Made by a program: the position numbers and the translations under genes
Notes under the pieces: generated by a model
What the model was told of the DNA's origin: nothing
Database searches by the model: none
What the model saw: the letters and a program-made list of their open reading frames with translations, nothing else
From: Candidatus Liptonbacteria bacterium
Lineage (GTDB): Bacteria; Patescibacteriota; Minisyncoccia; UBA6257; 2-01-FULL-56-20
Length of the DNA: 64,000 nt
Direction: 5' to 3'
NCBI GenBank assembly: GCA_023244895.1
Contig: JAHFLL010000001.1
Coordinates: 335,702-399,701 of the forward strand
In this document: in pieces, positions 7,544 to 31,454 of the stretch
How positions within the stretch are numbered: the first letter of the stretch is position 1
How the letters are laid out: each line of letters starts with the position of its first letter

Positions 7544-8600
7544 TATAATTCAGGAGATGTTGCAATCTAGACTGGAGAACACCTTTTATTTTGCGGTTTT
7601 GCTTTCGGTCTTGGTTTTGGCCTGCTATATTTTCTGGCCAAGCGTAACCGCCTTAGTTTTGGCACTTACCTTTGCTACGGCATTTCGTCCGGTATATAGA
7701 TTTCTTAAAAGGATTCTGCGCTGGGAAGGACTGGCGTCCATTGTTACCGTATTTTTGGTTTTGATTGTGGTTTTCCTGCCCTTGGGATATTTCGCGCGCG
7801 AGATTCTAAATCAGGCAACGGCTCTCTATGTGAATCTTGCCCAAGGCGAGACCGACCCGAGCAGTTTTGTGAGGCACATCTCCGAAACTAAAATAGGACA
7901 AATTCTGCCTTCCGTGACCGGCGCGGAATTTGATAAATACGTAAGCGAATCCCTGAGCTGGCTAGTGGGTCAGTTCGGCGCCATTTTCCAACAGATTACC
8001 AATATTCTCTTTACCATTTTCATTAGCTTGATAGCGCTTTATTATTTTTTGAGAGACGGCGAAAGGTTCAAGACGGAAGTGATAGGCGCACTGCCTATTC
8101 ATTCGGCCTACGCGGAAGAAATATTGCGCCAGACGGCGCGGGCCATTAAGTCGGTGATTTTGGGCGCGCTCGCGATAGCTGTCATTCAGGGCGTCTTATC
8201 TGGGATAGGGTTTGTTATTTTTGATGTGCCCCGTCCTGCGCTTTGGGCCGCAGTTACTATAGTGGCCGCTCTTGTGCCGACCCTCGGCACATCTTTAGTT
8301 CTCATTCCGGTCGTCGCTTACTTGTTTATTTCCGGTCAGACCATGGCCGCGCTAGGCATGGCGATCTGGGGCGCGATAGCAGTGGGTCTGATAGATAATC
8401 TCTTGGGTCCCAAGCTGATGCAATATGGCACCAAGGTGCATCCCTTGCTGATACTTTTAAGCGTAATCGGCGGTATATCGGTATTTGGAGTTATTGGTTT
8501 TCTGGTGGGTCCAATCGTGCTCGGGTTCTTATATGCCCTGCTTGATATTTATCCTAAAATTGTAAGACCAGAGACCAAAGCGATAAATGATCTGGCATAA
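7524..8600 (+). CDS. AI-2E family transporter (PerM/YdiK-like, PF01594)
   Basis: About 8 TM helices with a central cytoplasmic loop; length and topology typical of UPF0118. Confidence 0.6.
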   Translation: MEWYGNDIIQEMLQSRLENTFYFAVLLSVLVLACYIFWPSVTALVLALTFATAFRPVYRFLKRILRWEGLASIVTVFLVLIVVFLPLGYFAREILNQATALYVNLAQGETDPSSFVRHISETKIGQILPSVTGAEFDKYVSESLSWLVGQFGAIFQQITNILFTIFISLIALYYFLRDGERFKTEVIGALPIHSAYAEEILRQTARAIKSVILGALAIAVIQGVLSGIGFVIFDVPRPALWAAVTIVAALVPTLGTSLVLIPVVAYLFISGQTMAALGMAIWGAIAVGLIDNLLGPKLMQYGTKVHPLLILLSVIGGISVFGVIGFLVGPIVLGFLYALLDIYPKIVRPETKAINDLA

Positions 8601-11292: not shown

Positions 11293-11321
11293 TCAATATC
11301 CTAGAGACGAGAAGTTAAGAT

Positions 11322-11792
11322 ATGCCGGAGAGCATAAACAAACATTTCAAAGCAAGACCAGGGCAAAGAGATTACACCCACGTTCGGGAAGCGCCAGTTA
11401 TAAACAGTGTTATAGAATGCGCCGGAGAAATATTACTAGTGCGTCGTAGCGATAAATTGGGGTTTTATCCTGGGCTATGGAGTGGAATCACGGGCTTTTT
11501 GGATGATGAAAAAAATCCAGAGAACAAACTGAAGGAGGAAATTTGGGAGGAACTTGGTATCGCAAGTGACAAGCTTGGGCCAATAGAATCTGCCCCTCCA
11601 TTTGAGACAGAGGACGCAAGGTATTCCAAGACATGGACGGTCTATCCTCTTAGGGCTGTCTTGTCTACCAAAGAGGTTAAGCTCAATTGGGAGGCGGAGG
11701 AATACGCTTGGATATTGCCCGAAAAGATTTATGAATACAATCTTATGCCCGGTTACGACAAGGTGTTTAGAATATTCTATCCGGAGCTGTAG
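11322..11792 (+). CDS. NUDIX-family hydrolase (divergent)
   Basis: GFLDDEKNPENKLKEEIWEELGI Nudix-like box. Confidence 0.5.
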   Translation: MPESINKHFKARPGQRDYTHVREAPVINSVIECAGEILLVRRSDKLGFYPGLWSGITGFLDDEKNPENKLKEEIWEELGIASDKLGPIESAPPFETEDARYSKTWTVYPLRAVLSTKEVKLNWEAEEYAWILPEKIYEYNLMPGYDKVFRIFYPEL

Positions 11793-11839
11793 TTGGGGCA
11801 AAATGGATAAAATGAGCGAGAAATGCTTTAATTTCAGCA

Positions 11840-12574
11840 ATGATTAAGATCTCTCGTTCTAAGCTAGAGTTATTTACAAAATGCCCGCGTTGCTTTTGGC
11901 TGGACGTAAAATATGGGGTTAAACGTCCTCCAGGCTTTCCCTTCACTATAAATAGCGCGATAGACTACTTATTTAAGCAGGAATTTGATATTTATCGCGC
12001 GGAGGGCAAGCCCCATCCAATTATGGTGGAGGCAGGAATAGATGCGGTGCCATATAACGGTCCGGAAATGGACGCCTGGCGGGACGCGCTAAAAAATGGA
12101 GTCATTTATCATGACCCGGAGAGCGATATTACCCTAAGAGGCGGAGTGGACGATGTTTGGATAAACTCGGCTGGGGAACTAATCGTAGTGGATTATAAGT
12201 CCACCGGCTCCGGTTCCGGCATTCCGACGGTCTACGACGAATATGTTCGCCAGTTGGAGGTTTATCAATGGCTACTCGCTAAAAATAATTACAAAGTTTC
12301 GCCGGTGGGTTATTGGGTGTACGCCCAGGCGGATAAGTCCCAAGGCTTTGGCCACGGCAAACCCATCTTGCCATTCAATCTTTATTTAAAGTCCGCGACC
12401 GGCAAGTGGGATTGGATTCCGGAAAAACTAATGGAAGCGAAGAAGGTATTAGAGATGGAAACTCCACCCGACCCAGGCGAGGAGTGTATGGCTTCCGGCA
12501 TACAGTCCTTTTGCAAATATCGCCAAGACTCTATGAGGGTCACCCGGGACGCGCTCCAGAAGGGAAAATCCTAG
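11840..12574 (+). CDS. Cas4-like PD-(D/E)XK nuclease with a four-Cys (Fe-S type) arrangement; no CRISPR array nearby
   Basis: N-terminal CPRCFWL, catalytic D...VVDYKS, QxxY, C-terminal ECMASGIQSFC. Confidence 0.6.
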   Translation: MIKISRSKLELFTKCPRCFWLDVKYGVKRPPGFPFTINSAIDYLFKQEFDIYRAEGKPHPIMVEAGIDAVPYNGPEMDAWRDALKNGVIYHDPESDITLRGGVDDVWINSAGELIVVDYKSTGSGSGIPTVYDEYVRQLEVYQWLLAKNNYKVSPVGYWVYAQADKSQGFGHGKPILPFNLYLKSATGKWDWIPEKLMEAKKVLEMETPPDPGEECMASGIQSFCKYRQDSMRVTRDALQKGKS

Positions 12575-12585
12575 AAAAGAAAAAA

Positions 12586-13059
12586 AGCGTGCCGATAATC
12601 CGTGGACTAAAGAAGATAATTTGGACGGTTCACTCCCGGCAAAAGATGCGCCAGTACGGTCTCTCCGAGGCGCGGGTTTTGCGCATAATTCACACACCCG
12701 CGCGAGTGGAGGATGGCGTCGCGGATAAGACGATTGCTTTTATGCAAAAGGCGGGCAGTAAGGCTCATCCCAACGAACTTTGGACTATGGTGCAGGATGT
12801 TGGACAGAAGAGGAAAATCATCAGCGCCTGGCGTTATCCGGGCGTGACCAAGCCCCGCGGGGAAGCGGCTATGAACTTTATCCGGGCAGAACTGGAAGAC
12901 TTCTTGGTCAAAGAAGAGGAGCCACCCAAACCTAAGCCTAAGCTCAAAAAATGGTTTAAGCCTCAAGCCAAAACAATGCCCAGGCAGCCCTGGCCCAAGC
13001 GTAAGTTCCAAAGTTTCCGTAACATAAAATTGGGAGACCAAAATAAGTCCGATGAATAG
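12586..13059 (+). CDS. Hypothetical protein with a Lys/Pro-rich C-terminal tail. The ORF track begins it at 12406, which overlaps the preceding gene; GTG 12586 is the more likely start
   Basis: The 12406 ORF overlaps 11840..12574 by 169 nt in another frame. The tail EEEPPKPKPKLKKWFKPQAKTMPRQPWPKRK is low-complexity. Confidence 0.35.
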   Translation, partial: SVPIIRGLKKIIWTVHSRQKMRQYGLSEARVLRIIHTPARVEDGVADKTIAFMQKAGSKAHPNELWTMVQDVGQKRKIISAWRYPGVTKPRGEAAMNFIRAELEDFLVKEEEPPKPKPKLKKWFKPQAKTMPRQPWPKRKFQSFRNIKLGDQNKSDE

Positions 13060-13194
13060 ACCCCATTATTGGATTTATGTAGCGATAGTACTCTTGTTTC
13101 TCTGTGCCTGGTTGCTTTGGACTTATTTTTATAAACCGGGCTTGATTTAGCGCAGGATTTTTCATCTCTAGCCCAGCGGAATATTTTTTCTCGC

Positions 13195-13400
13195 AAGAAG
13201 CTCTTGGAGACAATCTTCGCCTCTCCAGGTAAGTGGAGGCTTTCCCTTCGGGAGAAGCTTTCGGAGGCTAAATAAGCTAGGTATCGTTCAGAACGATTTA
13301 TTTAGCCGAGAAGCAGCGGGCAGCTTCCGCCGGAGAAGCTGAACCGCGGTTCTCTCGAAGAGAAAACCGCAGCGGAGTTATCCACAGAAATCTCTTCTCA
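13195..13400. other. Highly structured non-coding segment: stacked hairpins plus four GAGAAGC motifs; candidate ncRNA or island attachment/regulatory region
   Basis: GGCTAAATAAGC..GATTTATTTAGCC hairpin, CAGCTTC/GAAGCTG hairpin, CCGCGG..CCGCAGCGG pairing; no ORF. It is followed by a strong terminator at 13557-13590. Confidence 0.3.
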
Positions 13401-13556
13401 TGTCTCAGGCTTGCATTATCATCAAATTAATGAGCAATCAGACACCATCTTCCCACCAGTCGTATCTCATAATTACCCGTAACTATTTGTGGCTGTCTTT
13501 GGTTTTGTTTACTAAGGACGGTGGGGGAGGCTGATGTAATTTCACAGGATTTTTAC

Positions 13557-13590
13557 AAAAGCCCCCTCCCGCCGAGGGGGCTTTTGTGTG
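13557..13590. terminator. Bidirectional rho-independent terminator (GCCCCCTC-ccgcc-GAGGGGGC + TTTTGTGTG, A-run upstream)
   Basis: Read directly. Confidence 0.6.
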
Positions 13591-13676
13591 TCCGGGATTG
13601 ATTGCTAGTAATGGTAGGCAGTCCCGGGGACGCGAATGGGTTGCGTTCCAAATGCACCTTGAGAGGAGAGGGAGGG

Positions 13677-14036
13677 ATGGAGATAGAGTTCATCTGCACT
13701 GAGACGGACGAGGGCTTGCGCAAGCTCGTGGATTCGGACTGCTTCGTGGTGGCGCATGGTCTGGAATCCTTGCGCGACCCGAGGTTCGGTCCACTGGTTG
13801 AAGGGGAGCTGAGGGGTCTTCCGGTCGGTCCGCGACGGATCTATCTGAAGAGTGGCAATGGCACGCCGCCCGGCAAGACGATGCTGGTGCGGCTCGTAGA
13901 TGATCCCAGTCATCGCATTGATCTGGACCTGTATGCCACGGATGGCTGGGGCGTTATCTTGCCTGCGGGCATGAGTCCAGACCAGATGTGGAGGGTCATC
14001 ATCAAGGCGTTGTCCATTCTAGAAGTTCGGGACTAG
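13677..14036 (+). CDS. Hypothetical protein, first gene of the GC-rich island (ATG 13677 preceded by GGAGGG)
   Basis: High-GC codon usage, strong RBS gagaggagagggagggATG; no recognisable domain. Confidence 0.45.
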   Translation: MEIEFICTETDEGLRKLVDSDCFVVAHGLESLRDPRFGPLVEGELRGLPVGPRRIYLKSGNGTPPGKTMLVRLVDDPSHRIDLDLYATDGWGVILPAGMSPDQMWRVIIKALSILEVRD

Positions 14037-14225
14037 CGCGTCCCGCCTAGAGGCGCCATCTCTAACCTACCCCATAGTCTGTCGCGGGTCGTCCAAACGG
14101 GGACGACTCGCGGCACCAACTTGTTATCTGAAGACTGTTTATTAAAAGATAAATAGTCTTCAGATCGCAGGCAGCGATCTGATAAGCTGCGTCGGGCAGC
14201 TTACATAGCACCTTGAGGGGACCAT

Positions 14226-14450
14226 ATGACCGAAATCGCAACGGGCGGACCCACCTGGACCAGCGGCGCGAATACGAGCGGCCCCGGACGTTTCGCGGCC
14301 ATGAGTGCGGGAGAGAGGTATGCTCTCCCCGCATCATCCGTGGAGCGCGAGGGGCCGCTCGGAAGGGTTGGGCAGGAAGAGTCGGTCGGATCCGCTCCCG
14401 TCGGTCAGAGCGGAAGCCCGCGCGGGCGGCGGCTCGATAGCTGGGCCTAG
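14226..14450 (+). CDS. Possible small Gly/Ser/Pro/Ala-rich protein (74 aa) in the island; could be a frame artefact of GC-rich DNA
   Basis: ATG with gagggga 6 nt upstream and GC3 of about 70%. Competing ORFs exist in other frames. Confidence 0.2.
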   Translation: MTEIATGGPTWTSGANTSGPGRFAAMSAGERYALPASSVEREGPLGRVGQEESVGSAPVGQSGSPRGRRLDSWA

Positions 14451-14636
14451 GGGAGTATAGTCCTGAGAATATTTTGGGGGTCGTGAGAGTCTTCAGGCGC
14501 TCGCAAGTCACGACTCCCACCCCATTTATCAAAAATATGAGATTACTTTTAATCGCTAAGAAATATTATTGGTTTAGTTATGAACCTCTCACGAGAAAGG
14601 GGCTGTTTGAGTAACTGCGTATTTATACAAACAACC

Positions 14637-14667
14637 AAAAAACCTCTTTCTCGGAAGAGGTTTTTTG
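14637..14667. terminator. Rho-independent terminator (AACCTCTT-tctcgg-AAGAGGTT + TTTTTT), bidirectional
   Basis: Read directly, immediately upstream of the ligase genes. Confidence 0.55.
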
Positions 14668-14720
14668 TTCCTCTTTCGAAGTGTCGCCCCTTGAGAACTT
14701 AATACGGAAAGGACAGGGAC

Positions 14721-15479
14721 ATGCATCAGATACAGGACTTCTTGGCGAGTTTCCGTTTCCGGCCAGAGCTGGCCGGCTGCGTCGGCATCGAGAGGGAAAG
14801 GTTTCTCGTGTCGCCCGAAGGTGCGTTCGCGCCCAGGGCAGACGAGTTTCTCTCGGAGATGCGGGACGCGGCTTGGACGTACGAGCTGTCGCGCTGCCAG
14901 GTTGAAGACAGAACCAGGTCGGCGCGCGACCACTTCATCGTCAAGGCGAATCTGCTCTCGAACGACAACCGGGGCAAGTTCGTCGCGGCGAAGATCGGTC
15001 TTGGGCTCCAGACGCTGGAAGTGGCGCCCGAAAGCATGCCGCTCGACGTCTACCCGGAGCCCCGCTACTTGGCCATCGCGGAAAAGATCAGCCGGGAAAC
15101 GCTCTCGGCTGCATGCCGGGTCGCCGGCACGCACATCCACCTCGGGATGCGCAACATGGACGAGGCCATCGCGGCCTACAACCTGCTCCGTGCTGAGCTG
15201 GAGACGCTCACGCGGCTCGGCGATCATTCCGGCGGAGAGAGAATAAGGCTCTACCGGGCGATGGCGGGGAAGTGGAATCCGCCGCAGTACCGGGACGAGC
15301 AGGAGCTCTTCGAGATCGCGCGTCAGGAAGGATTCGCGGAGAACTCCAGAAACTGCTGGCATCTTATTCGGATAACTCAGAAGGGAACGGTGGAGTGCCG
15401 GATGTTCGGCGTAACCGTATTCCCGGACGAGATTCTGGAGTGGGTGTCGGCTGTAAGGCGCATCGCGAGGGGAGTCTAA
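14721..15479 (+). CDS. Compact glutamate-cysteine ligase family 2 (GCS2/YbdK-like) carboxylate-amine ligase
   Basis: VGIERERFLV (YbdK GIELEMQVV-like Mg site), ELSRCQVE, RVAGTHIHLGM (YbdK GQHVHVG), GTVECRMFG (YbdK GTVEVRVMD). High GC3. RBS ggaaaggacaggg. Confidence 0.6.
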   Translation: MHQIQDFLASFRFRPELAGCVGIERERFLVSPEGAFAPRADEFLSEMRDAAWTYELSRCQVEDRTRSARDHFIVKANLLSNDNRGKFVAAKIGLGLQTLEVAPESMPLDVYPEPRYLAIAEKISRETLSAACRVAGTHIHLGMRNMDEAIAAYNLLRAELETLTRLGDHSGGERIRLYRAMAGKWNPPQYRDEQELFEIARQEGFAENSRNCWHLIRITQKGTVECRMFGVTVFPDEILEWVSAVRRIARGV

Positions 15480-15483
15480 GAGT

Positions 15484-16797
15484 ATGAGTAACCCAATGCT
15501 CGACGCGTTCGACGCTCAAGCGGAAGATATCTGCTCTCGTAGAGACAGCTTCCGCGTATCCGCTCCGGCGGTCGTAGTCGGTCTCGAATCGGAAATCGCG
15601 CTATTCTCGGACGAAATCGAGCCGCGCGACATATCCCAATTGCGGGAAGAGATGATCCGCGAAAACGGAGAACTCGCCCACGAGCTCGGAGCCACTCAGC
15701 TCGAGTTCCGGACGTCGCCGGTCGATATTCTGGATCGGGGCATTGGGGCGCTGCAGGAAGAGTTGGCGGGGAAGTACGAACAGATTCGGAGACAGGCCGT
15801 AGCGAGAGATCTCTTCATTCTCCGCATCGGCGCGAATCCGTTCTACCCCATCCTGGGCGCGCCCCGAACCGATAAGCCGCGGTATCAGCTGGTGCCGGAC
15901 TTTCAGAACGTGAATCGGCGGGCGGGCATGGACACGACCATCGGGATGAACGGCACACGGGTTGACGTCGGAGACGCGGCCAGCGTGTCGTTGTTCCAGG
16001 CGCTCCACGTGAATCTGCAAGCAGATTCCATCCCGGACGCGGTGGACAAGCTGAACCGATCCCTCATGGTCAGCCCCTACGTCCTCGCCGCGGCGGGCAA
16101 CTCGCGCTACCTGAACCTCACGGACACGGGCCTCAATGAGGCGCGCATGGTCGTCTGGGAGTTGAGCCACGATACGCGGACTCCGGAGGAGTTGCGCCAG
16201 GGCGTCGGTCTCCGGATCGGCTTGCCGGAGAACTACTTCGGAAATCTGCGCGCCTACTTCAATCGGATGCGCAGGTATCCGTTCATCCTGGACGATCCGG
16301 CCAAGGCCTTCGGTATCGCGACTGGTCTGTCCTGGCTCGACGCGCGGATCAAATTCATCGGCAATCACGCGGTGGTCGAGTTGCGCTCCCTGCCCACCCT
16401 GCCCACTACCTCGCAGGAAGTGGCGTTCGTGTCGTTCTATCTCGGCCGGCTGTTCTACTCCCAGCTCTCCGGCGAGAACCTGCTCGACATTGCGATGGTC
16501 GAGGAGAACCGTCTGAATGCGATGCTCTACGGTCTCCAGGCTCGCTTCTGGTGCCATGCGGATGGGGGCGTCAAGGTCTTGAGCGGAACGGAGATGTTCC
16601 GCTCGGAGCTCGCCAAGGCGAAGTCCGGCCTGGGAGAGGTAGGACTATCCGCCGATGCTCTGGGAGAGATTGAGGATTGGGGAGAGCTCGGTTCTCCTTC
16701 GTCCCGTCTCGCCCAGAACCTCTCGGGATATGTCCAGGTCCCGCACTGCAAGATGGTAGATGCGCTGTGGCGCACCGGCATTCTGGACATGTGCTAG
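15484..16797 (+). CDS. Second, longer GCS2/YbdK-like carboxylate-amine ligase paralogue
   Basis: VVGLESEIALF, ELAHELGATQLEF, SLFQALHVNLQ, NHAVVELRSLPT correspond to the GCS2 motifs. RBS aggggag. 4-nt gap from the previous gene. Confidence 0.55.
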   Translation: MSNPMLDAFDAQAEDICSRRDSFRVSAPAVVVGLESEIALFSDEIEPRDISQLREEMIRENGELAHELGATQLEFRTSPVDILDRGIGALQEELAGKYEQIRRQAVARDLFILRIGANPFYPILGAPRTDKPRYQLVPDFQNVNRRAGMDTTIGMNGTRVDVGDAASVSLFQALHVNLQADSIPDAVDKLNRSLMVSPYVLAAAGNSRYLNLTDTGLNEARMVVWELSHDTRTPEELRQGVGLRIGLPENYFGNLRAYFNRMRRYPFILDDPAKAFGIATGLSWLDARIKFIGNHAVVELRSLPTLPTTSQEVAFVSFYLGRLFYSQLSGENLLDIAMVEENRLNAMLYGLQARFWCHADGGVKVLSGTEMFRSELAKAKSGLGEVGLSADALGEIEDWGELGSPSSRLAQNLSGYVQVPHCKMVDALWRTGILDMC

Positions 16798-16809
16798 TTC
16801 GCAGTTTGT

Positions 16810-16843
16810 GGCCCCCGGTACGTTTAACCGGGGGCTATTTTTA
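16810..16843 (+). terminator. Rho-independent terminator (GCCCCCGG-tacgtttaa-CCGGGGGC + TATTTTTA), closing the GC-rich island
   Basis: Read directly. Confidence 0.6.
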
Positions 16844-16917
16844 TCAATCTTCTTTTGCCGCAATTGTGACAGGCTCCACATCTTTTAAAAATAGTTACGA
16901 TATGAAATAATCTAATT

Positions 16918-17676
16918 ATGTGCAGAATATTGGCAGTTACGGGAAAAGATTGGCAGATGGATACAGTTTTGGAAGACTTCGGACGCCTGGCCGAATACGG
17001 ACATGTGCCCGAATCAACCGCGCCTGGCCACAAGGATGGTTGGGGAGTGGTGGCACACAATAAGGGCGGAGTTAGCTTTTATGCTCGTAGTACAGAAGAC
17101 GCTTTTAGCGATCCCAGGTTCAGAGAGGTAGCGGATTTCGTCGGCAAAACGAGCCCAGACGTTTTAATTTCTCATTTTAGAAAAGCGTCTATCGGCTCGG
17201 TAAATATCCCCAATACGCACCCGTTTTTGAACGGCAAGATTTCTTTTTGCCACAACGGCTCCATCCGTTCGGAAATATCTTTGAGCGAAAATTCTGAGGC
17301 TCTTTTGCAAGGAGAAACCGATTCGGAGAGATTCTTTTTTATGATATTAGAAAAAATGCAGGCCGGGGCGAGTCTTAAAGACGCGCTTAAAAATTGTGTA
17401 AAATTAGCGCGCGAAAACTTTGATTTTACGGCTATAAACTTATTGATATCAGACGGCGGTTTTGTCTGGGCCTTACGCGAGATTAACGAAAAAAGCGAAA
17501 TAGTTCAGAAGGAAAACTTATTGGATTATTACAGCTTGTTTTTGGGTAAAAATAAATCTTCTTTCGTGATTTGCTCCGAGCAATTGTCTGTAGGGGGAGA
17601 TTGGCAGTTAATGCAAAATCACGAGTTGGTGGAAATAGATGTTGCGAATTCGGTTGTTGAATCCGAAGTTATATAG
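16918..17676 (+). CDS. Class-II (Ntn) glutamine amidotransferase, YafJ/EgtC-like; host-type AT-rich codons
   Basis: MCRILAV... (Cys2 nucleophile after the initiator Met) and HFRKASIGSVNIPNTHPF, typical of GATase type 2. Confidence 0.75.
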   Translation: MCRILAVTGKDWQMDTVLEDFGRLAEYGHVPESTAPGHKDGWGVVAHNKGGVSFYARSTEDAFSDPRFREVADFVGKTSPDVLISHFRKASIGSVNIPNTHPFLNGKISFCHNGSIRSEISLSENSEALLQGETDSERFFFMILEKMQAGASLKDALKNCVKLARENFDFTAINLLISDGGFVWALREINEKSEIVQKENLLDYYSLFLGKNKSSFVICSEQLSVGGDWQLMQNHELVEIDVANSVVESEVI

Positions 17677-18104
17677 TTTGAGATATCTATAGGTTGGTGA
17701 TATAAGAGAATAAGCAGGCGCATTGTCGCCCACCAGCTGAGGAGGCTTCTGTGGATGTTCGGATCAGCCCTAGCGAGGAGTTGGCGAGAGGTATCCTCGC
17801 GACCCGAAATTGTCTTGTTCTTGTCGAGCTCCAGCTCGGCGAGGAAGAAGGCGATTTCGCGTGCGTCGTCTTCGGACCGGAGGATCTCCTGGAAGAGATC
17901 GCGGGGATTCAGGGTTGGGAACGAAGACCAACCGAGCCCCTCTCGATTCAAGTCCCTCTCCGGGCGGAGGCTTCGGAAGTAGTCAGGATTCTGGAACTTT
18001 CCATCGTTGATCTGTGCGTGGTGTCGGACGGCGATGGCGGGGAGATGGAATTCCCTGGTCCGGACGTCTCCCTTTAGCGAGTAGCAGTGGGTACGCGGAC
18101 GCAT
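17619..18104 (-). CDS. Possible GC-rich gene remnant on the minus strand (GC-rich patch about 17740-18120); function unknown, probably 3'-degraded
   Basis: The minus frame has the higher GC at codon position 3. agagg lies 7 nt upstream of ATG 18104. The ORF runs into the 3' end of the GATase gene. Confidence 0.2.
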   Translation of the reverse strand: MRPRTHCYSLKGDVRTREFHLPAIAVRHHAQINDGKFQNPDYFRSLRPERDLNREGLGWSSFPTLNPRDLFQEILRSEDDAREIAFFLAELELDKNKTISGREDTSRQLLARADPNIHRSLLSWWATMRLLILLYHQPIDISNYITSDSTTEFATSISTNS

Positions 18105-18201
18105 TTGTCGCCTCTGCCCACCCACCCGAGTTCATTATCCATATGGTGAATTGGGGTGGGTTTAATTGATTTAATCGGGCGAATCGCTATGATTAGCGTA
18201 A

Positions 18202-18969
18202 ATGACACAGTATCCTTTTAGGACTCGTTTTAAAAAAGAAATTGTGGCGGAATTTTTGCCTCCGGCGCGACCGGGTAAAAAACAACGCGTGATTATTTTG
18301 TGCGACGGCATGCCGAGCGTGCCCAATCGGCGTAGCTTGATGCAATTTTTATCTCGAAAGGGCTACTGGGTTTTCCATCCCCGTTATCGTGGCGCTTGGG
18401 AAAGCGGTGGGCAATTTTTGGCCAAGTCTCCGCACCTGGATATTCTGGACGTTGTAAGTGGTCTTAAGGGTAAGATAAAAGAAAGGGCTTACGGTAAAAC
18501 TTTTCCCATAAAGCCGGACGAAATATTTGTGGTCGGAGGCAGTTTTGGCGGTCCGGCGGCGATACTCTGCTCGCTTGATAAGCGCGTTAAAAAAGTTGTG
18601 GCTAACTGTCCGGTAGTGGATTGGCCGGCGAGTAAAGCGGGAGATAAGGCAGAGACATCCCATAAGAACTATGCCGCGTACGTGCGGGAGGCTTTCGGCA
18701 ACGGCTACCGCCTAACCGATAGAAACTGGAACAAGTTGTATTCCGGTAAGTTCTATAATCCTATGCATCATATAAAGGAAATTGATCCGTCCAAGATAAT
18801 AATGTTCCATGCCAAAGACGATCCGGTCGTGAACTGGCGGAGCGTCGCCAAGCTCTCCAAGCTGACCGGAGTCAAGCTAAAGTTACAGAACAGAGGCGGG
18901 CATATCTCAACCCCTTATGTGGTTGAGAAATATTGGAAACAGATAAGCAAATTTTTTAAGTCTAAATAA
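18202..18969 (+). CDS. Alpha/beta hydrolase (dienelactone hydrolase / peptidase S9-like)
   Basis: GGSFGG nucleophile elbow; 255 aa. Confidence 0.55.
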   Translation: MTQYPFRTRFKKEIVAEFLPPARPGKKQRVIILCDGMPSVPNRRSLMQFLSRKGYWVFHPRYRGAWESGGQFLAKSPHLDILDVVSGLKGKIKERAYGKTFPIKPDEIFVVGGSFGGPAAILCSLDKRVKKVVANCPVVDWPASKAGDKAETSHKNYAAYVREAFGNGYRLTDRNWNKLYSGKFYNPMHHIKEIDPSKIIMFHAKDDPVVNWRSVAKLSKLTGVKLKLQNRGGHISTPYVVEKYWKQISKFFKSK

Positions 18970-19476
18970 ATGGACACGCTGTCTCATGGGCTGTATGCCG
19001 GAATCGCTTTCGGTCGTAGAAGCAAAAGGGATTACCTGACAGCCTTTTTGTTCGGTATCGGACCGGATATATTGTCTTTTGGACCATTCTTCCTGGGTGC
19101 CATATTGGGTTTAGAAGATTGGCCCGGCCGGGGCGCGGAACCACCCAGCTCCGACCTAATCCCAGGTTTCGTCTATTTGCTCTACGATTTTACTCACAGT
19201 TTTCTAATTTATGCCCTATTCTTCGCCTTGTTGTGGTGGTTGGGCAGAAAAAGTTTCGCGTTGCTGACTCTGGGCTGGCCACTTCATATCCTAGTTGATA
19301 TTCCGACCCATTCCGCAATATTTTTCCCGACACCATTTCTTTGGCCGATTTCTAATTTTTATATAGATGGGCATCCTTGGGGTAGCCCGGAGATATTTCT
19401 TCCGAACGTGGTTTTACTGGTGGGACTCTACGCGTATTGGTATACTCACAGAAGAAAAAACCGCAAACAAGTCTAA
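18970..19476 (+). CDS. Membrane-bound metal-dependent hydrolase (YdjM/DUF457-like)
   Basis: His-rich TM protein; LHILVDIPTHS. Confidence 0.45.
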   Translation: MDTLSHGLYAGIAFGRRSKRDYLTAFLFGIGPDILSFGPFFLGAILGLEDWPGRGAEPPSSDLIPGFVYLLYDFTHSFLIYALFFALLWWLGRKSFALLTLGWPLHILVDIPTHSAIFFPTPFLWPISNFYIDGHPWGSPEIFLPNVVLLVGLYAYWYTHRRKNRKQV

Positions 19477-20513: not shown

Positions 20514-20663
20514 GCGGGCTTGGTCAGTAAAAGATTCGGATTGAACAGCTTCTTTAACTATGAAGTCTCTTCGTGGTTCAAGTTATGTTGACTTCCCGTA
20601 AAATAATTGTAATGATTGGCACCAGTCCGAACGAATAAGTCCGTTCTTTCATGAGAGGTCGGA

Positions 20664-21107
20664 ATGAACAAGCTGACGTTGACGCAATGGCTCTACTTCG
20701 CGATAGCTATCTTGGGCTGGAGTTTCTGGCCCAACCTGGCACGGCGAGCGGATCTCCCGCCCGCACTGACCGGCCTGGTTGTATCCTCCGCCACGGCTAT
20801 CACCGTCCTATTAGGGACGGCCGGGGTTGTCGCGGGACAGCTCGGCAAGGCCGTCTGGGCGAAGGTCATCCTGCTGGTCGTCGCGGGAGTGATCAACGGT
20901 TTGGGCATGCTCTTTATGCCCAAGGTCTTCATGTCAGTACCACAGGCGCAGATGTCGGTATTCAACGCCGGCATGATTGCCTGTATTCTGGCGCTCAGTG
21001 TCGCGAGCTCGTTCCTGTTCTTCTTCGGGCAGGACATGCTCACCTGGCGGAAGATCGGAATCTTCGCCGCCGTGGGAGTAGCCATCTGGCTTTCCGCGAC
21101 CGGATAG
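20664..21107 (+). CDS. Small 4-TM membrane protein (EamA/DMT half-transporter-like) in a GC-rich cassette
   Basis: High-GC codons; RBS gagaggtcggaATG; hydrophobic throughout. Confidence 0.45.
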   Translation: MNKLTLTQWLYFAIAILGWSFWPNLARRADLPPALTGLVVSSATAITVLLGTAGVVAGQLGKAVWAKVILLVVAGVINGLGMLFMPKVFMSVPQAQMSVFNAGMIACILALSVASSFLFFFGQDMLTWRKIGIFAAVGVAIWLSATG

Positions 21108-21197
21108 GCCGGACTGGACCGAGTAGGCGGAGGAGTGGCCACGCCAAGCGTGGCCAGAGGCGACTCGGCGCGGAGTCATGGTTCTCGCGACCTCCTA

Positions 21198-21800
21198 CTA
21201 GTTCCGCCGATCGAGGGACGCCCCGAGCGTCTCGTCGTCCGCAAACTCGATTTCGCCGCCTGTCGGGAGACCTCTCCCCAGGCGGCTTGTTTTTTTCGCC
21301 AAGCCCGCCAATTCTTTATTTAAAATAGAGGCATGAAAATCTCCCACACTGGTTGGATTTACCCCGAAGATTATCTCTTTAGCCTGCCCGTCTAACTCTT
21401 TTTTGATAAACAATTTTAGTTGGTCCAGCCTTTTTCTCTGCCAGTCCAAGAGCGCGCCGGTGCGGGGGATGTCTCCTAGAACAAAATACCGCCCCTGGTA
21501 TTTTCCGGTATTCTCCAGAGATAACAGGTCGGTTTCTTTTTCTACGATTAAGATAATGCCTTGATCGCGTTTCGGATTAGAGCATATTTCGCAAACGCCC
21601 TCGACTTCTTGGTGTATAAAAAAACACTGCTCGCAAATCTTGAGTTTTTTGAGGTCGTCTATGTCTTTGGCCAGCCCACCAATAAAGCCCTGCCCCTGGT
21701 TCAGGAAATAAAAAATCAAACGGATAGCTTGGCGCGGTCCAATGGAGGGTAGTTCCGATAACTGGTCGGCTAGTTTTTTTATGGAATTGGGTAGGTGCAT
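21198..21800 (-). CDS. recR: Recombination protein RecR
   Basis: C4 zinc finger CEQCFFIHQEVEGVCEIC, Toprim domain, C-terminal GLPTGGEIEFADDETL. The last about 30 codons are GC-rich, unlike the rest of the gene. Confidence 0.9.
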   Translation of the reverse strand: MHLPNSIKKLADQLSELPSIGPRQAIRLIFYFLNQGQGFIGGLAKDIDDLKKLKICEQCFFIHQEVEGVCEICSNPKRDQGIILIVEKETDLLSLENTGKYQGRYFVLGDIPRTGALLDWQRKRLDQLKLFIKKELDGQAKEIIFGVNPTSVGDFHASILNKELAGLAKKTSRLGRGLPTGGEIEFADDETLGASLDRRN

Positions 21801-21866
21801 AGTCGATTTTATTGATATTTGCGAGTCGCAGACGATGCAAATATTATCATAAAATCTACTACCCCG

Positions 21867-22121
21867 TTAGATAGTAATGTCATTTTTGATTCTGTTTTTT
21901 ATATATCTTTTGCCCCAGGCGGTTTTTAGGTATATCTCGCGATGGTTTGCGTCCTTGGAGCTATTGCTCGCTTCAAAATATACCAGAACTAGCGGCCTTC
22001 TGTCCTTGGTGCTTTTAACTTCTCCTCTCGCGTGTTGCTTAATGCGGTCCTTTAATATTTCCGACTTACCGACATAAAAACCGCCATCCCTTAAGCTTTT
22101 TAGTATGTAAACATAATACAT
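21867..22121 (-). CDS. Small GIY-YIG nuclease-superfamily protein
   Basis: YYVYILKS...GFYVGKSEILKDRIKQH GIY-YIG motif; 84 aa. Confidence 0.65.
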   Translation of the reverse strand: MYYVYILKSLRDGGFYVGKSEILKDRIKQHARGEVKSTKDRRPLVLVYFEASNSSKDANHREIYLKTAWGKRYIKNRIKNDITI

Positions 22122-22177
22122 GTTTATCTAACGGGGTGAAGTTTTTTCAAACGAATCAAAGATTCGTTAAAAAATAA

Positions 22178-23587
22178 TCAGAACGCTCCGAAGTCTTCCA
22201 ATATGGGCCGGTCCGCGGACACGTGTTGCTCTCCCACGTTTTTATCAATAGCGCGGAAACTGACTGCGTCCGTGTCAAAGCGCAGGTCCACGGAGCCCAA
22301 AGGTCCATTGCGATGCTTGGCGATAATGATTTCCGCCATATTTTGCTCTTCCGGTGGAACATCTATCCTGTCCCGGTCTTTGCGGTAGATAAACATAACC
22401 ACGTCCGCATCTTGCTCAATGCTGCCCGATTCGCGCAGGTCATGCAATTGAGGACGCTTGTTGTCTCTTTGGTCTACCGCGCGTGAAAGCTGGGAGAGGG
22501 CGAGGACGGGCACGTTAAGCTCACGCGCCAAACCTTTGAGGCCGCGAGAGATTTCCGTAACTTGAGAAACCATATTATCGGAGCTGCGCCGGGGCGCGAT
22601 AAGCTGTAGATAGTCCACTACTAATAGTCCCAAGCCGTGCTCTATTTGCAGGCGGCGGCTCATAGAGCGCATTTGGAGAATATTTGGGGAGGGCGTGTCA
22701 TCAATATAAATCGGAACATTGGATAAGACGTCTAGGGCATGCTGGATGCGCTGGAAGTCGCCTTCGTTATTTAGCTTTCCGGTGCGTAATTTCCAAAGAG
22801 GGATGTCGGCCTGCCCGGATATCAAGCGGTCAATAACCTGTTCCCGAGACATTTCTAGAGAAAAAATACCCACCGGAATATTGCCTTTAACCGCCGCGTG
22901 GCGGGCCATATCCAAGGCAAGGGTGGTTTTGCCGAGAGATGGTCTCGCGCCCAAGACGACCAGGTCGGATTTTTGCAAGCCGGAAAGCAGATTGTCTATG
23001 CCATTAAATCCGGTCGGCACTCCGCGCAACGCGCCCTTATGCTCGTGCAAACGTTCTATTCTCTCGTATGCCTGCTTCAGCTCGTCTTTAACCGGTACGA
23101 AGTTCTGGGGTAGGGAACTTTGAGAAATTGACAGGATTTTATGTTCAATACTATCCAATAATTCTTCAAACTCTTGCCCCGGGGCGAGCGCGCCCTCGGT
23201 TATCTCGGCAGAGGCCTTAATTAAGTCGCGCAGGACCCTCTTTTCCTTTACTATGCGCGCGAAGTGGTCAATGTGAGAAGCGGTGGAAATCTTATTGGTC
23301 AGGTCGGTGATGTAGCCCGCTCCGCCCACGCTTTGCAGAAGCTGTTTTTCTTTAAGGAGGCTGGTCAGAGTTATGACATCTATCGGTTGTTTCTTCTCGT
23401 GAAGCTCCAAAATTATTTCGTATATTTTTTCGTGGGCGGGGCTGTAAAAATCGGCGGGAGTTAAAAGGTCCGCCACCTTATGGACGGAATTTTTGTCTAT
23501 CAAAAGACCGCCCAGAACGGACTGCTCCGCTTCCGTGTTCTGTGGCGGAATTCTTATGTCGTTTTGATTCTGTTGGGAATTGGGCAT
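22178..23587 (-). CDS. dnaB: Replicative DNA helicase DnaB
   Basis: GARPSLGKTTLALDMARH Walker A and DnaB N- and C-terminal domains; 469 aa, no intein. Confidence 0.9.
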   Translation of the reverse strand: MPNSQQNQNDIRIPPQNTEAEQSVLGGLLIDKNSVHKVADLLTPADFYSPAHEKIYEIILELHEKKQPIDVITLTSLLKEKQLLQSVGGAGYITDLTNKISTASHIDHFARIVKEKRVLRDLIKASAEITEGALAPGQEFEELLDSIEHKILSISQSSLPQNFVPVKDELKQAYERIERLHEHKGALRGVPTGFNGIDNLLSGLQKSDLVVLGARPSLGKTTLALDMARHAAVKGNIPVGIFSLEMSREQVIDRLISGQADIPLWKLRTGKLNNEGDFQRIQHALDVLSNVPIYIDDTPSPNILQMRSMSRRLQIEHGLGLLVVDYLQLIAPRRSSDNMVSQVTEISRGLKGLARELNVPVLALSQLSRAVDQRDNKRPQLHDLRESGSIEQDADVVMFIYRKDRDRIDVPPEEQNMAEIIIAKHRNGPLGSVDLRFDTDAVSFRAIDKNVGEQHVSADRPILEDFGAF

Positions 23588-30801: not shown

Positions 30802-30810
30802 CGAGTCATG

Positions 30811-30847
30811 GGGGCGCCAACGTCGGCGCCCTCGTTCGTTTTATTTG
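30811..30847 (+). terminator. Rho-independent terminator (GGGCGCCAACGTCGGCGCCC + T-rich)
   Basis: Read directly. Confidence 0.5.
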
Positions 30848-31444: not shown

Positions 31445-31454
31445 GGAGGAGCGC

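What the first reader, a model, noticed from the sequence alone, without database searches (positions are those of the whole stretch)
16918..18125. Host-type class-II glutamine amidotransferase placed between the ligase island and a further GC-rich remnant
The YafJ/EgtC-like Ntn amidotransferase (MCR... nucleophile) lies immediately downstream of the two GCS2 ligases, but it uses AT-rich host codons. It is followed by another roughly 380-bp GC-rich patch (17740-18120) with an open minus-strand frame. The adjacency of a GCS2 ligase and a class-II GATase mirrors the EgtA/EgtC logic of ergothioneine biosynthesis, where a gamma-glutamyl group is added and later removed. No EgtB or EgtD is present. 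The pattern of GC-rich, host-like, then GC-rich DNA suggests that the amidotransferase gene was captured inside an island, or that the island was split by it.
Basis: inference. Interest (0 to 1): 0.6.

Follow-up and report, generated by a model that had tools for sequence, protein, structure and literature searches.

The report
Core amidohydrolase flanked by imported GC-rich DNA
The flagged gene is an ordinary, vertically inherited glutamine-amidotransferase-fold hydrolase that sits beside amide-forming ligases in several related ultra-small bacteria, and the GC-rich DNA on either side of it is two separate imports, not one island that captured it.

Summary
16918-17676 encodes a stand-alone class-II (Ntn) glutamine amidotransferase with a Met-Cys start and native composition (GC3 0.46). 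It lies between GC-rich GCS2 ligase genes (GC3 0.78-0.81) and a GC-rich patch (17704-18162).

The order PDDEXK-orf137-GCS2a-GCS2b-GATase is conserved in three diverged Patescibacteria lineages, and in two of them it continues to YchF-RecR-DnaB. In four relatives the amidotransferase is followed within 1-26 nt by the same S9-type hydrolase. The patch is a 524-bp insertion (17677-18200) that is missing from the closest relative. Its minus-strand peptide has no homologue among 1.84 billion protein representatives. A plus-strand 108-aa orphan ORF, with AGGAGG upstream and a hairpin downstream, is the more likely gene.

The functional idea, a ligase paired with a gamma-glutamyl amidohydrolase, is supported. 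About 20 of 22 non-redundant GCS2b loci carry an amidohydrolase-type gene within 3 kb (class-I GATase, class-II GATase, AstE-like or M20). It is not an ergothioneine system. In this genome the ligase pair looks like a GC-rich allele swapped in from another Patescibacterium. Interest is modest.

The parts
14721..15479 (+). GCS2a, the short (252 aa) GCS2-type carboxylate-amine ligase paralogue. It is GC-rich (GC3 0.81).
   Evidence: Pfam GCS2 scores 27.3 bits against a cutoff of 21. The GhExE-type motif GIERE is readable at residues 22-26. Homologues lie directly upstream of GCS2b in most related loci.
15484..16797 (+). GCS2b, the long (437 aa) GCS2-type carboxylate-amine ligase. It is GC-rich (GC3 0.78).
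   Evidence: Pfam GCS2 scores 41.3 bits. It has 48 homologues, mostly from Patescibacteria. G33, E35 and E37 are invariant in alignment A3. It is 88% identical in protein and 85% in DNA to L053.
16808..16838 (+). Intrinsic-terminator-like hairpin after GCS2b. It marks the right edge of the GC-rich ligase segment.
   Evidence: The scan finds 12 pairs followed by a TTTTAT tail. DNA similarity to L053 runs through window 16847, and similarity to L002 starts at 16900.
16918..17676 (+). Stand-alone class-II (Ntn, YafJ/EgtC-type) glutamine-amidotransferase-fold enzyme with native composition.
   Evidence: Family matches are. Alignment A1 (30 sequences) keeps the MCR start and has R88, N113, G114 and D135 invariant. 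The closest solved structure is 1te5 at E 5.9e-10.
17677..18200 (.). A 524-bp lineage-specific insertion with a GC-rich core at 17704-18162. It lies between the amidotransferase stop codon and the hydrolase start codon.
   Evidence: L002 aligns to window 16900-17676 and 18201-19463 with only 1 nt between its two genes. The segment has no match in the rest of the window or in the fetched loci tested (DNA: window and L002; ORFs: the other loci), and none in plasmids, phages, viral contigs or Rfam.
17751..18077 (+). Orphan 108-aa acidic ORF, the favoured coding frame of the insertion.
   Evidence: AGGAGG lies 5 nt upstream of its GTG start. It was called as a gene in a public assembly. The single-sequence AlphaFold model gives pLDDT 64.6 and pTM 0.61. 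It is a singleton cluster and has no significant fold match in the PDB.
17619..18125 (-). It is probably the in-phase shadow of the plus-strand ORF, or a dead gene fragment.
   Evidence: It has no homologues. Its model gives pLDDT 38.9 and pTM 0.23. It overlaps the 3' end of the amidotransferase gene by 58 nt. The codon model favours it slightly, 24 bits against 9.8 bits.
18120..18161 (+). Hairpin followed by a T-rich tail. It is terminator-like for the plus strand and lies at the right end of the insertion.
   Evidence: Inverted repeat I2 has 15-nt arms that are 87% complementary. The hairpin is a stem in the minimum-free-energy fold.
18166..18193 (+). Sigma-70-like promoter match (TTGATT-16-TATGAT) inside the insertion, just upstream of the hydrolase gene.
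   Evidence: This is a consensus match only: 6 matches were found in the region against 2.3 +/- 1.4 expected.
18202..18969 (+). S9-type alpha/beta-hydrolase. In relatives it is the tightly linked downstream partner of the amidotransferase.
   Evidence: Pfam Peptidase_S9 scores 31.3 bits. It is 91% identical to the L002 protein, and 45-51% identical to those of L004, L005 and L054, always directly after the amidotransferase.
13554..14553 (.). A further GC-rich orphan segment upstream of GCS2a. It lies in the variable slot between orf137 and the ligase genes.
   Evidence: Composition is. ORFs 13602-14036 and 14062-14532 have no family hits. tblastx finds no match to any fetched locus. Relatives carry different cargo at this position.

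Best explanation
16918-17676 encodes a stand-alone class-II (N-terminal-cysteine) glutamine-amidotransferase-fold enzyme. It belongs to this Patescibacterium's own inherited gene order: PDDEXK nuclease, orf137, a ligase slot, the amidotransferase, an S9-type hydrolase, YdjM, YchF, RecR, DnaB.

Its most likely role is to hydrolyse a gamma-glutamyl (or glutamine) amide bond in the product of the neighbouring ATP-dependent carboxylate-amine ligases, here GCS2a plus GCS2b. The ligases make the amide and the Cys2 nucleophile removes it. This is the logic of EgtA/EgtC, PuuA/PuuD and Dug3, but the metabolite is unknown and is not ergothioneine.

The GC-rich DNA around the gene has two separate origins.
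1. The ligase pair sits at its ancestral position. In this genome, however, it is a GC3-rich, Shine-Dalgarno-bearing allele that was probably exchanged in from a GC-richer Patescibacterium. Its right edge lies at 16848-16899.
2. The segment 17677-18200 is a later 524-bp insertion. It splits the normally near-contiguous amidotransferase and hydrolase genes. It carries an orphan ORF, most likely the plus-strand 108-aa one, together with its own hairpin and a promoter-like site.

What is shown: family membership, synteny, the absence of the insertion in relatives, the composition steps and the lack of homologues. What is inferred: the substrate, the direction of the reaction, the allele exchange and which strand of the patch is coding.
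For: Family membership:
- Pfam GATase_4 scores 62.7 bits, and the protein aligns full-length with a 251-position EgtC model with no extra domain.
- In 30 homologues the Met-Cys start is kept, and R88, N113, G114 and D135 are invariant.
- The nearest solved structures are the YafJ-like proteins 1te5 and 3mdn.

Synteny:
- The order PDDEXK-orf137-GCS2a-GCS2b-GATase is conserved in L054, L057 and L117, and in L054 and L057 it continues to YchF, RecR and DnaB. Protein identities there (GCS2a 51-56%, GCS2b 43-53%, PDDEXK 49-51%, YchF 62-66%) are what shared descent would give.
- The spacer between the amidotransferase and the hydrolase is 1, 4, 4 and 26 nt in L002, L004, L005 and L054. In the window it is 525 nt.

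Coupling to ligases:
- GCS2b from the four class-II-linked lineages forms one clade in a rough neighbour-joining tree.
- Among 22 non-redundant, well-flanked GCS2b loci, 13 have a class-I GATase/Peptidase_C26 gene, 1 a class-II GATase, 5 an AstE/AspA-like gene and 1 an M20 peptidase within 3 kb; 2 have none (corrected).
- Relatives of the amidotransferase lie beside a single GCS2-like gene (L118) or beside ATP-grasp genes (L119, L006, L002).

Allele exchange:
- GC3 is 0.78-0.81 for the ligase genes and 0.46 for the amidotransferase gene in the window. In L054, L057 and L117 the same genes match their flanks.
- GCS2b and its terminator are 85% identical in DNA to L053 (GC3 0.755) up to window 16847.
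- In L002 the fragment upstream of the amidotransferase belongs to a different, ATP-grasp-like gene, and it is also GC3-rich (0.78 over 36 codons).
- GC-rich ORFs carry Shine-Dalgarno motifs and native genes mostly do not.
- Gene transfer in Patescibacteria occurs mostly within the phylum (PMC12455944).

Patch.
Against: - No biochemical data exist for any member of this amidotransferase clade or of this GCS2 clade.
- A terminator-like hairpin (16808-16838) and promoter-like sites separate GCS2b from the amidotransferase gene in this genome, so the two may not be co-transcribed.
- Some relatives of the amidotransferase have no ligase next to them (L004, L005, L116).
- The closest GCS2b relative, L053, is followed by a different gene and not by an amidotransferase.
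- The allele-exchange step rests on composition and on a 2.2-kb donor-like contig whose organism is unknown.
- For the patch, GC3 is higher than GC1 on the minus strand and the codon model slightly favours the minus frame. The plus-strand ORF was never searched against the largest protein databases, and its AlphaFold confidence is only moderate.
Confidence: 0.55

Rival explanations
1. One reading: one GC-rich foreign island carried the GCS2 genes and the 17740-18120 patch. Either a native amidotransferase gene was captured inside it, or the amidotransferase gene split it.
For: GC-rich DNA lies on both sides of a gene with native composition. ORFs on both flanks carry Shine-Dalgarno-like motifs that native genes mostly lack.
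Against: The GCS2a-GCS2b-GATase order is ancestral: it occurs at the same syntenic position in L054, L057 and L117. The amidotransferase and hydrolase genes are contiguous in four relatives. The two flanks share no sequence. No relative or GCS2b locus contains a homologue of the patch. There is no integrase, no adjacent tRNA gene and no flanking repeat.
Confidence: 0.06
2. The amidotransferase is a true glutaminase subunit. It hydrolyses free glutamine and hands ammonia to the GCS2 ligase or ligases, which amidate a carboxylate. This would be a two-component amidotransferase like MurT/GatD.
For: The residues that hold the free alpha-amino and alpha-carboxylate groups of a glutamyl moiety are conserved (their functional assignment comes from established knowledge of class-II amidotransferases). 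In sister GCS2b clades the partner is a class-I GATase, and both classes are classic ammonia donors. MurT/GatD is a precedent for a ligase-fold protein paired with a separate glutaminase (PMC3267633, PMC5871853; seen by title and abstract only).
Against: Deeper GCS2b relatives pair instead with AstE/AspA-like and M20 enzymes, which are pure hydrolases. The class-I partners also match Peptidase_C26, the gamma-glutamyl hydrolase family. The characterised stand-alone enzymes of this fold, EgtC and Dug3, are hydrolases of gamma-glutamyl compounds (PMC5790434, PMC12653102). A terminator-like site separates the genes in the window.
Confidence: 0.2
3. The patch is the remnant of a minus-strand gene that came in with foreign DNA: a 5' gene fragment whose native stop codon was lost. 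It is now non-functional.
For: The minus frame has the GC1/GC2/GC3 pattern (0.61/0.44/0.69) of the other GC-rich genes here, and it has the best codon-model score at 24 bits. Its amino-acid composition is balanced. It runs out of the GC-rich core and 58 nt into the amidotransferase gene, as a truncated frame would.
Against: phmmer finds no homologue among 1.84 billion representatives, and the word-indexed search of 5.8 billion proteins finds none either. The model gives pLDDT 38.9. An open frame of that length arises by chance in 14% of shuffles.
Confidence: 0.2
4. The patch is non-coding: either a structured RNA or simply inert filler DNA acquired by illegitimate recombination.
For: The plus-strand RNA folds better than all 100 shuffles (z = -3.6), whereas the minus strand does not (z = -0.7). 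Neither frame has a homologue.
Against: Rfam gives no match even at E <= 1. Only the in-phase frame pair scores positive in the codon model, while the other four frames score -22 to -60 bits. AGGAGG is correctly spaced before the GTG start. No second copy was available with which to test covariation.
Confidence: 0.12
5. The GC-richness of the GCS2 pair is intrinsic to these genes and was vertically inherited, so no exchange took place.
For: Identities to L054, L057 and L117 are in line with those of the flanking core genes. The GCS2b tree places the window inside the class-II-linked clade.
Against: In L054, L057 and L117 the pair has the same GC3 as its neighbours, so there is no intrinsic bias. 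A jump of about 0.32-0.34 in GC3 within 120 bp is specific to this lineage. The sister genome L002 has a different gene at that position.
Confidence: 0.1

Closest known systems
EgtA/EgtC of actinobacterial ergothioneine biosynthesis
   Same: A GCS2-family gamma-glutamyl ligase gene lies beside a stand-alone class-II (Ntn) amidotransferase-fold hydrolase that later removes the glutamate (PMC5790434). The window protein aligns over the full length of the EgtC model.
   Different: The score is 72.8 bits against an equivalog cutoff of 218.65, and EgtC structures match only at E 0.003. No EgtB, EgtD or EgtE is in the neighbourhood. There are two tandem GCS2 paralogues rather than one. The host is a Patescibacterium whose longest contig on record is 0.84 Mb.
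YafJ-type stand-alone class-II amidotransferases (PDB 1te5, a 'conserved hypothetical protein'; 3mdn)
   Same: These are the best sequence matches among solved structures (E 5.9e-10 and 6.8e-08). They are the same size and have the same Pfam GATase_4 architecture.
   Different: The function of these proteins is itself unknown. The alignment to 1te5 covers only residues 34-184 of the query, so the relationship is distant.
PuuA/PuuD and related gamma-glutamylation pathways (a GS-fold ligase plus a class-I GATase/Peptidase_C26 hydrolase)
   Same: The logic is the same: an ATP-dependent gamma-glutamyl ligase is paired with a cysteine amidohydrolase of the GATase fold (PMC9397018). The sister GCS2b clades in Patescibacteria carry exactly such a class-I GATase/Peptidase_C26 partner.
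   Different: In the window the hydrolase is class-II and not class-I. The ligases belong to the GCS2 branch and not to the glutamine-synthetase branch. No amine oxidase or dehydrogenase genes of a catabolic pathway are nearby.
Fungal Dug2/Dug3 glutathione-degrading complex
   Same: Dug3 is a class-II glutamine amidotransferase involved in glutathione utilisation (PMC12653102, PMC9012958). That it partners with an M20-domain protein (Dug2) is from prior knowledge, not checked here. M20 peptidases also recur next to GCS2b or next to relatives of the amidotransferase.
   Different: The Dug system is eukaryotic and has no adjacent ligase. No direct homology test was done here.
Uncharacterised carboxylate-amine ligase neighbourhoods of Iyer, Burroughs and Aravind 2008 (PMC2588565)
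   Same: [quoted passage not shown] The same paper proposes a heterodimer of two PafA paralogues (the Pup ligase) and notes that GCS1 and GCS2 function as dimers.
   Different: That family was described in proteobacteria and firmicutes. The Patescibacteria cluster, with a short and a long GCS2 paralogue, is not mentioned there.

Membership tests
Class-II (Ntn) glutamine amidotransferase, stand-alone GATase_4/YafJ type | An N-terminal Met-Cys, so that Cys becomes the N-terminal nucleophile after Met removal | tested here: met
   The ORF begins MCRIL at 16918. M1 and C2 are nearly invariant in the 11-sequence alignment A2, and the Met-Cys start is seen in most rows of the 30-sequence alignment A1. 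The public gene call starts at Met14 and misses it.
Class-II (Ntn) glutamine amidotransferase, stand-alone GATase_4/YafJ type | A profile match above the curated threshold | tested here: met
   Pfam PF13230 scores 62.7 bits against a cutoff of 23.
Class-II (Ntn) glutamine amidotransferase, stand-alone GATase_4/YafJ type | Conserved glutamyl-binding and oxyanion residues (Arg, Asn-Gly, Asp) | tested here: met
   R88, N113, G114 and D135 are invariant in 30 sequences. Their roles are assigned by analogy to GlmS and PurF from established knowledge and were not tested structurally here.
Class-II (Ntn) glutamine amidotransferase, stand-alone GATase_4/YafJ type | No fused synthase or acceptor domain | tested here: met
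   The protein is 252 aa, and residues 1-245 align to positions 1-246 of a 251-position model.
EgtC (ergothioneine amidohydrolase) | A score above the NCBIfam equivalog cutoff for TIGR03442 | tested here: not met
   The score is 72.8 bits against a cutoff of 218.65. EgtC structure 4zfj matches only at E 0.003 over residues 1-127.
EgtC (ergothioneine amidohydrolase) | Co-occurrence with EgtB (sulfoxide synthase) and EgtD (histidine methyltransferase) | tested here: not met
   No such domains appear among the called genes within about 10 kb in the window's contig or in L054, L057 and L117. The rest of the genome could not be examined.
GCS2/YbdK carboxylate-amine ligases (the two upstream genes) | Pfam GCS2 above threshold and the GhExE Mg/ATP motif | tested here: met
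   The scores are 27.3 and 41.3 bits against a cutoff of 21. GIERE is present in GCS2a and GLESE in GCS2b. G33, E35 and E37 are invariant in alignment A3. The motif definition is from PMC2588565.
GCS2/YbdK carboxylate-amine ligases (the two upstream genes) | Membership of a named NCBIfam glutamate-cysteine ligase or YbdK model | tested here: not met
   The best scores are 46 and 39.5 bits against cutoffs of 176-427. These genes form a distinct, unnamed subfamily.
Genomic island (as claimed for the flanks) | Deviant composition relative to the host genome | tested here: met
Genomic island (as claimed for the flanks) | Absence from close relatives at the same position | tested here: inconclusive
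   The patch is absent in L002, L004, L005 and L054. The GCS2 pair is present at the same position in L054, L057 and L117. The sister genome L002 has a different gene there, but its contig ends after 178 bp.
Genomic island (as claimed for the flanks) | Mobility hallmarks: an integrase or transposase, an adjacent tRNA gene, flanking direct repeats | tested here: not met
   The only tRNA gene is at 30887. No flanking repeats were found. There are no mobility domains in the neighbouring ORFs.
Two-component glutamine-dependent amidotransferase (MurT/GatD-like) | A physical complex with ammonia transfer from the glutaminase to the ligase | not testable with these tools
   This needs biochemistry or complex modelling. 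Only gene adjacency is available.

The most novel reading that the evidence does not exclude
Patescibacteria may carry a conserved, uncharacterised small-metabolite or peptide module: two tandem GCS2-type ligases (a short and a long paralogue), sometimes with a third GhExE ligase-like gene. Its amide-cleaving partner has been replaced repeatedly by unrelated folds (class-I GATase, class-II GATase, AstE-like, M20). Its ligase cassette may be exchanged between lineages at a fixed slot next to the hydrolase. If so, these minimal-genome organisms would make and turn over a gamma-glutamyl compound that is not yet known from them, such as a thiol or a cell-surface-related peptide.
Probability: 0.3. 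Interest if true: 0.6.

Novelty: new member of a known kind. Interest (0 to 1): 0.33.

Why it matters
The specific claim, that a native gene was trapped in a foreign island, is not upheld, so the locus is not evidence for an unusual capture event.

What remains useful is a comparative signal. In organisms with very small genomes and few biosynthetic genes, a pair of GCS2-type amide ligases is kept next to an amide hydrolase of changing fold. That pattern points to a defined but unknown gamma-glutamyl-type metabolite, and the enzymes can be tested in vitro.

The locus also shows how these genomes change. Short GC-rich, Shine-Dalgarno-bearing pieces with orphan ORFs are dropped into intergenic spacers. 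A functional cassette also appears to have been swapped at a fixed position, which fits reports that gene transfer in Patescibacteria is mostly within the phylum (PMC12455944).

A practical point: the public gene call for this enzyme starts 13 codons too late and deletes its catalytic cysteine.

Tried and rejected
1. Homologues of the minus-strand peptide. The word-indexed search of 5.8 billion proteins found none, and phmmer against 1.84 billion representatives found none. Pfam, NCBIfam, PHROGs and PADLOC gave nothing for either frame.
2. Patch DNA, and the plus-strand ORF, against plasmids, phages and viral contigs: no match. Patch DNA against the rest of the window and L002, and both ORFs against most fetched loci: no match.
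3. Known RNA family: Rfam gave nothing at E <= 1. The plus-strand fold has z = -3.6, but no second copy exists, so covariation could not be tested.
4. Mobile-element ends: no terminal inverted repeats and no target-site duplication at 17677/18200.
6. A link between the gene downstream of GCS2b in L053 and the ATP-grasp-like gene of L006/L002: not significant.
7. Homology of the left GC-rich segment (13060-14720) to the cargo that relatives carry in the same slot: none.
8. Exact look-up of the full 252-aa amidotransferase failed, because the database holds the 239-aa call.
9. The first alignment for the genome scan was too diverse and was rebuilt.
10. Misassembly as the cause of the GC alternation was rejected. 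An independent contig is identical across all junctions, and every junction falls between intact genes.
Full report
**Observation**

ORF 16918-17676 (+, 252 aa) begins MCRIL. It matches Pfam GATase_4 at 62.7 bits against a cutoff of 23. It aligns end to end with the 251-position EgtC model TIGR03442, but at 72.8 bits against a cutoff of 218.65.

The two ORFs upstream (14721-15479 and 15484-16797) both pass the Pfam GCS2 threshold.

Composition alternates sharply:
- The GCS2 genes have GC 0.61-0.62 and GC3 0.78-0.81.
- The amidotransferase gene has GC 0.435 and GC3 0.464.
- A stretch with GC of at least 58% follows at 17704-18162.

Across 62 ORFs in the window, GC3 averages 0.537 with sd 0.078. 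The amidotransferase gene is therefore native-like and the GCS2 genes are strong outliers.

The minus-strand frame 17619-18125 is open, but so is the in-phase plus-strand frame 17751-18077. A stop-free run as long as the one observed occurs in 14% of dinucleotide-preserving shuffles of the patch, and both runs together occur in 2.9%. The open frame by itself is weak evidence.

An independently assembled contig (L001) is 100% identical over window 6957-19002. All composition junctions fall between intact genes. Misassembly is therefore unlikely.

**The organism and the amidotransferase family**

The exact protein is on record only as a 239-aa call that starts at Met14. The record comes from an 840,672-bp contig. 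The closest named relatives are MAGs labelled Liptonbacteria, Parcubacteria and 'Saccharibacteria' at about 40% identity. The window is therefore from a Patescibacterium (CPR).

An alignment of 30 homologues keeps the Met-Cys start. H38, D40-G43, R88, N99, N113-G114 and D135 are invariant. From established knowledge of class-II amidotransferases, these are the nucleophile, the oxyanion hole, and the residues that hold the free alpha-amino and alpha-carboxylate groups of a glutamyl moiety. The protein is therefore probably catalytically competent, and its substrate is glutamine or a gamma-glutamyl amide.

Among solved structures the best matches are the uncharacterised YafJ-like proteins 1te5 (E 5.9e-10) and 3mdn. 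EgtC (4zfj) matches only at E 0.003.

**Synteny on the 3' side and the nature of the patch**

In the closest relative found (L002), the proteins compare with the window as follows: amidotransferase 77% identical, hydrolase 91%, YchF 96%. In L002 the amidotransferase stop codon is followed after a single nucleotide by the ATG of the alpha/beta-hydrolase that sits at 18202 in the window.

- L002 161-937 aligns to window 16900-17676.
- L002 938-2198 aligns to window 18201-19463.
- Window 17677-18200 (524 bp) has no counterpart.

The same amidotransferase-hydrolase adjacency occurs in L004 and L005 (4-nt spacers) and in L054 (26 nt). The patch is therefore a lineage-specific insertion into a normally very tight gene pair.

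The patch has no similarity to the rest of the window, to the other GC-rich patches or (by its ORFs) to the fetched loci that were tested. It has none to plasmids, phages or viral contigs, and none to Rfam.

The minus-strand peptide has no homologue in the 5.8-billion-protein word-indexed search or in a full phmmer pass over 1.84 billion representatives.

Which strand, if either, is coding remains open.

For the plus-strand 108-aa ORF:
- AGGAGG lies 5 nt before its GTG start.
- A hairpin with a T-rich tail follows at 18120-18161.
- It runs in the same direction as its neighbours.
- A public assembly called it as a gene.
- The single-sequence AlphaFold model gives pLDDT 64.6 and pTM 0.61, against 38.9 and 0.23 for the minus frame.

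For the minus frame:
- GC3 exceeds GC1.
- The codon-model score is somewhat higher, 24 bits against 9.8 bits. The four other frames score -22 to -60 bits.

I favour the plus-strand orphan ORF at roughly 55%. The minus frame would then be its in-phase shadow. The plus-strand RNA also folds unusually well (z = -3.6, against -0.7 for the minus strand). Without a second copy this cannot be tested further.

The right end of the insertion carries a promoter-like match at 18166-18193, just before the hydrolase gene. This may compensate for the broken coupling. That is an inference from a consensus match only.

**Synteny on the 5' side**

Homologues of GCS2b are widespread in Patescibacteria. In three diverged lineages the order is the same as in the window: PDDEXK nuclease, an orf137 homologue, variable cargo, GCS2a, GCS2b and the amidotransferase. 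In L054 and L057 the order continues to YchF, RecR and DnaB; the L117 contig ends one gene after the amidotransferase. L054 has the S9-type hydrolase right after the amidotransferase, L057 a trypsin-like gene and L117 an unrelated 284-aa ORF. The lineages are:
- L054/L060, with GCS2b 53% identical to the window's.
- L057/L081, with 43%.
- L117, with 43%.

Identities of the ligases to the window are in line with those of the flanking core genes. The four class-II-linked GCS2b sequences form one clade in a rough neighbour-joining tree. The three-gene arrangement is therefore ancestral. The amidotransferase was not captured by an island, and the ligase pair is not at a new location.

**Why the ligase pair is GC-rich here**

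- In L054, L057 and L117 the ligase genes have the same GC3 as their neighbours. The step of about 0.32-0.34 in GC3 in the window is therefore not intrinsic to these genes.
- The window's GCS2b and its terminator hairpin are 85% identical in DNA to a 2.2-kb environmental contig, L053. In L053 GCS2b has GC3 0.755. The similarity runs up to window 16847 and then stops, and similarity to L002 begins at 16900.
- In L002 the 35-residue fragment upstream of the amidotransferase is not GCS2b. It is the C-terminus of an ATP-grasp-like protein that also precedes the amidotransferase in L006 (62% identity). It too is GC3-rich, at 0.78 over 36 codons.
- About 4 of roughly 44 non-GC-rich gene starts checked in the window carry even a short Shine-Dalgarno-like motif (one of them a full AGGAGG), whereas 6 of 8 ORFs in the GC-rich patches have one, including GCS2a, GCS2b and the patch ORF.

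The most economical reading is that the slot upstream of the amidotransferase accepts ligase cassettes. In this genome the pair would have been exchanged for an allele from a GC-richer, Shine-Dalgarno-using Patescibacterium. This fits the report that most gene transfer in this phylum occurs within the phylum (PMC12455944). The exchange is inferred and not shown.

**Function**

A metagenome scan with a GCS2b alignment returned 56 loci. After removing near-duplicates and loci with short flanks, 22 remained. Their content within 3 kb of GCS2b was as follows (with two greedy-gene-call errors corrected):

| Gene within 3 kb of GCS2b | Loci |
|---|---|
| Class-I GATase/Peptidase_C26 | 13 |
| Class-II GATase | 1 |
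| AstE/AspA-like deacylase (one locus also has M20) | 5 |
| M20 peptidase | 1 |
| None | 2 |

Short contigs add two further class-II cases, L096/L097 and L101/L102. In L101/L102 the gene order is inverted.

Conversely, relatives of the window's amidotransferase lie beside other amide ligases:
- a single GCS2a-like gene in L118;
- an ATP-grasp ligase, an enolase-superfamily protein and an M20 peptidase in L119;
- a GhExE ligase-like gene plus an ATP-grasp-like gene in L006.

Some relatives have no ligase nearby: L004, L005 and L116.

Repeated replacement of the partner by unrelated amide-cleaving folds is best explained by a ligase/hydrolase pair that acts on one amide-linked compound, probably a gamma-glutamyl one. 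This is the logic of three known systems:
- EgtA/EgtC (PMC5790434).
- PuuA/PuuD-type gamma-glutamylation (PMC9397018).
- The class-II amidotransferase Dug3 in glutathione breakdown (PMC12653102).

Gene neighbourhoods of this general kind were noted by Iyer and colleagues (PMC2588565).

The main rival is a glutaminase-plus-ligase amidotransferase complex of the MurT/GatD type. It fits the two GATase partners but not the AstE-like and M20 partners. I give it about 0.2.

The system is not an ergothioneine system. The EgtC equivalog threshold is missed by a wide margin, and no EgtB or EgtD is in any of the neighbourhoods examined.

**Verdict**

The amidotransferase is a new member of a known kind of enzyme. 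The patch is an orphan insertion of uncertain coding status.

The most interesting residue is the conserved and uncharacterised ligase/hydrolase module in Patescibacteria, together with the apparent cassette exchange at a fixed slot.

Noticed in passing
whole window; for example gene starts at 918, 1845, 11840, 16918, 18202 and 19494, against 14721, 15484, 17751, 20664, 31076 and 54742: Native genes almost never have a Shine-Dalgarno motif (about 4 of roughly 44 non-GC-rich starts checked, one a full AGGAGG). Six of eight ORFs inside GC-rich patches have one. This suggests the patches come from donors with different translation signals.
   Followed up: partly
window 2574-3085, 13554-14553, 14666-16843, 17704-18162, 20622-21357, 30420-30840, 31048-31769, 54634-55769: The 64-kb window contains eight GC-rich (at least about 58%) patches. 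Several encode orphan small membrane or secreted proteins with no Pfam match, for example 20664-21107 (147 aa), 31076-31444 (122 aa) and 54742-55644 (300 aa, with a signal-peptide-like N-terminus).
   Followed up: partly
window 16918-16956: The public gene call for the amidotransferase (P0001, 239 aa) starts at Met14, so it lacks the catalytic Cys2. The true start is the ATG at 16918, and its 18 upstream nucleotides lie inside the stretch that aligns with L002 (alignment starts at window 16900).
   Followed up: yes
window 20543-21198 and 21804-22179: Two further differences from the sister contig L002. First, the spacer between YchF and RecR is replaced by unrelated sequence, which is GC-rich in the window and contains the 147-aa membrane ORF. 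Second, an 84-aa GIY-YIG gene (21867-22121, minus strand) is present only in the window.
   Followed up: partly
L002 2199-3932: The sister genome has its own 1.7-kb GC-rich insertion between YdjM and YchF, with two ORFs (274 aa on the plus strand and 212 aa on the minus strand; by eye both look like DNA-binding proteins, not checked against any family library). The window has only 17 nt at this position. Intergenic spacers in this lineage seem to be insertion hot spots.
   Followed up: no
L063 3236-4126, L006 7470-8399 and seven other loci: A roughly 300-aa protein family has no Pfam hit but carries a GhExE-like motif (VGIEVETSF / IGTEVETHF). It recurs upstream of the class-I GATase-GCS2a-GCS2b clusters and upstream of the ATP-grasp-like gene and amidotransferase in L006. 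It is probably a third, unannotated carboxylate-amine ligase.
   Followed up: partly
L053 1408-2223: The closest GCS2b relative (88% identical) is followed by a GC-rich ORF of more than 272 aa. This ORF has no family match and no counterpart in the window. It contains an ATP-grasp-like FxFKPxxGTGxxG motif, but it shows no significant similarity to the ATP-grasp-like protein of L006.
   Followed up: partly
window 17677-18201, plus strand: The plus-strand transcript of the insertion is predicted to fold much better than shuffled controls (z = -3.6; 0 of 100 shuffles fold as well), and the fold includes a roughly 60-nt imperfect hairpin at 17802-17862. The minus strand does not fold unusually well.
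   Followed up: partly
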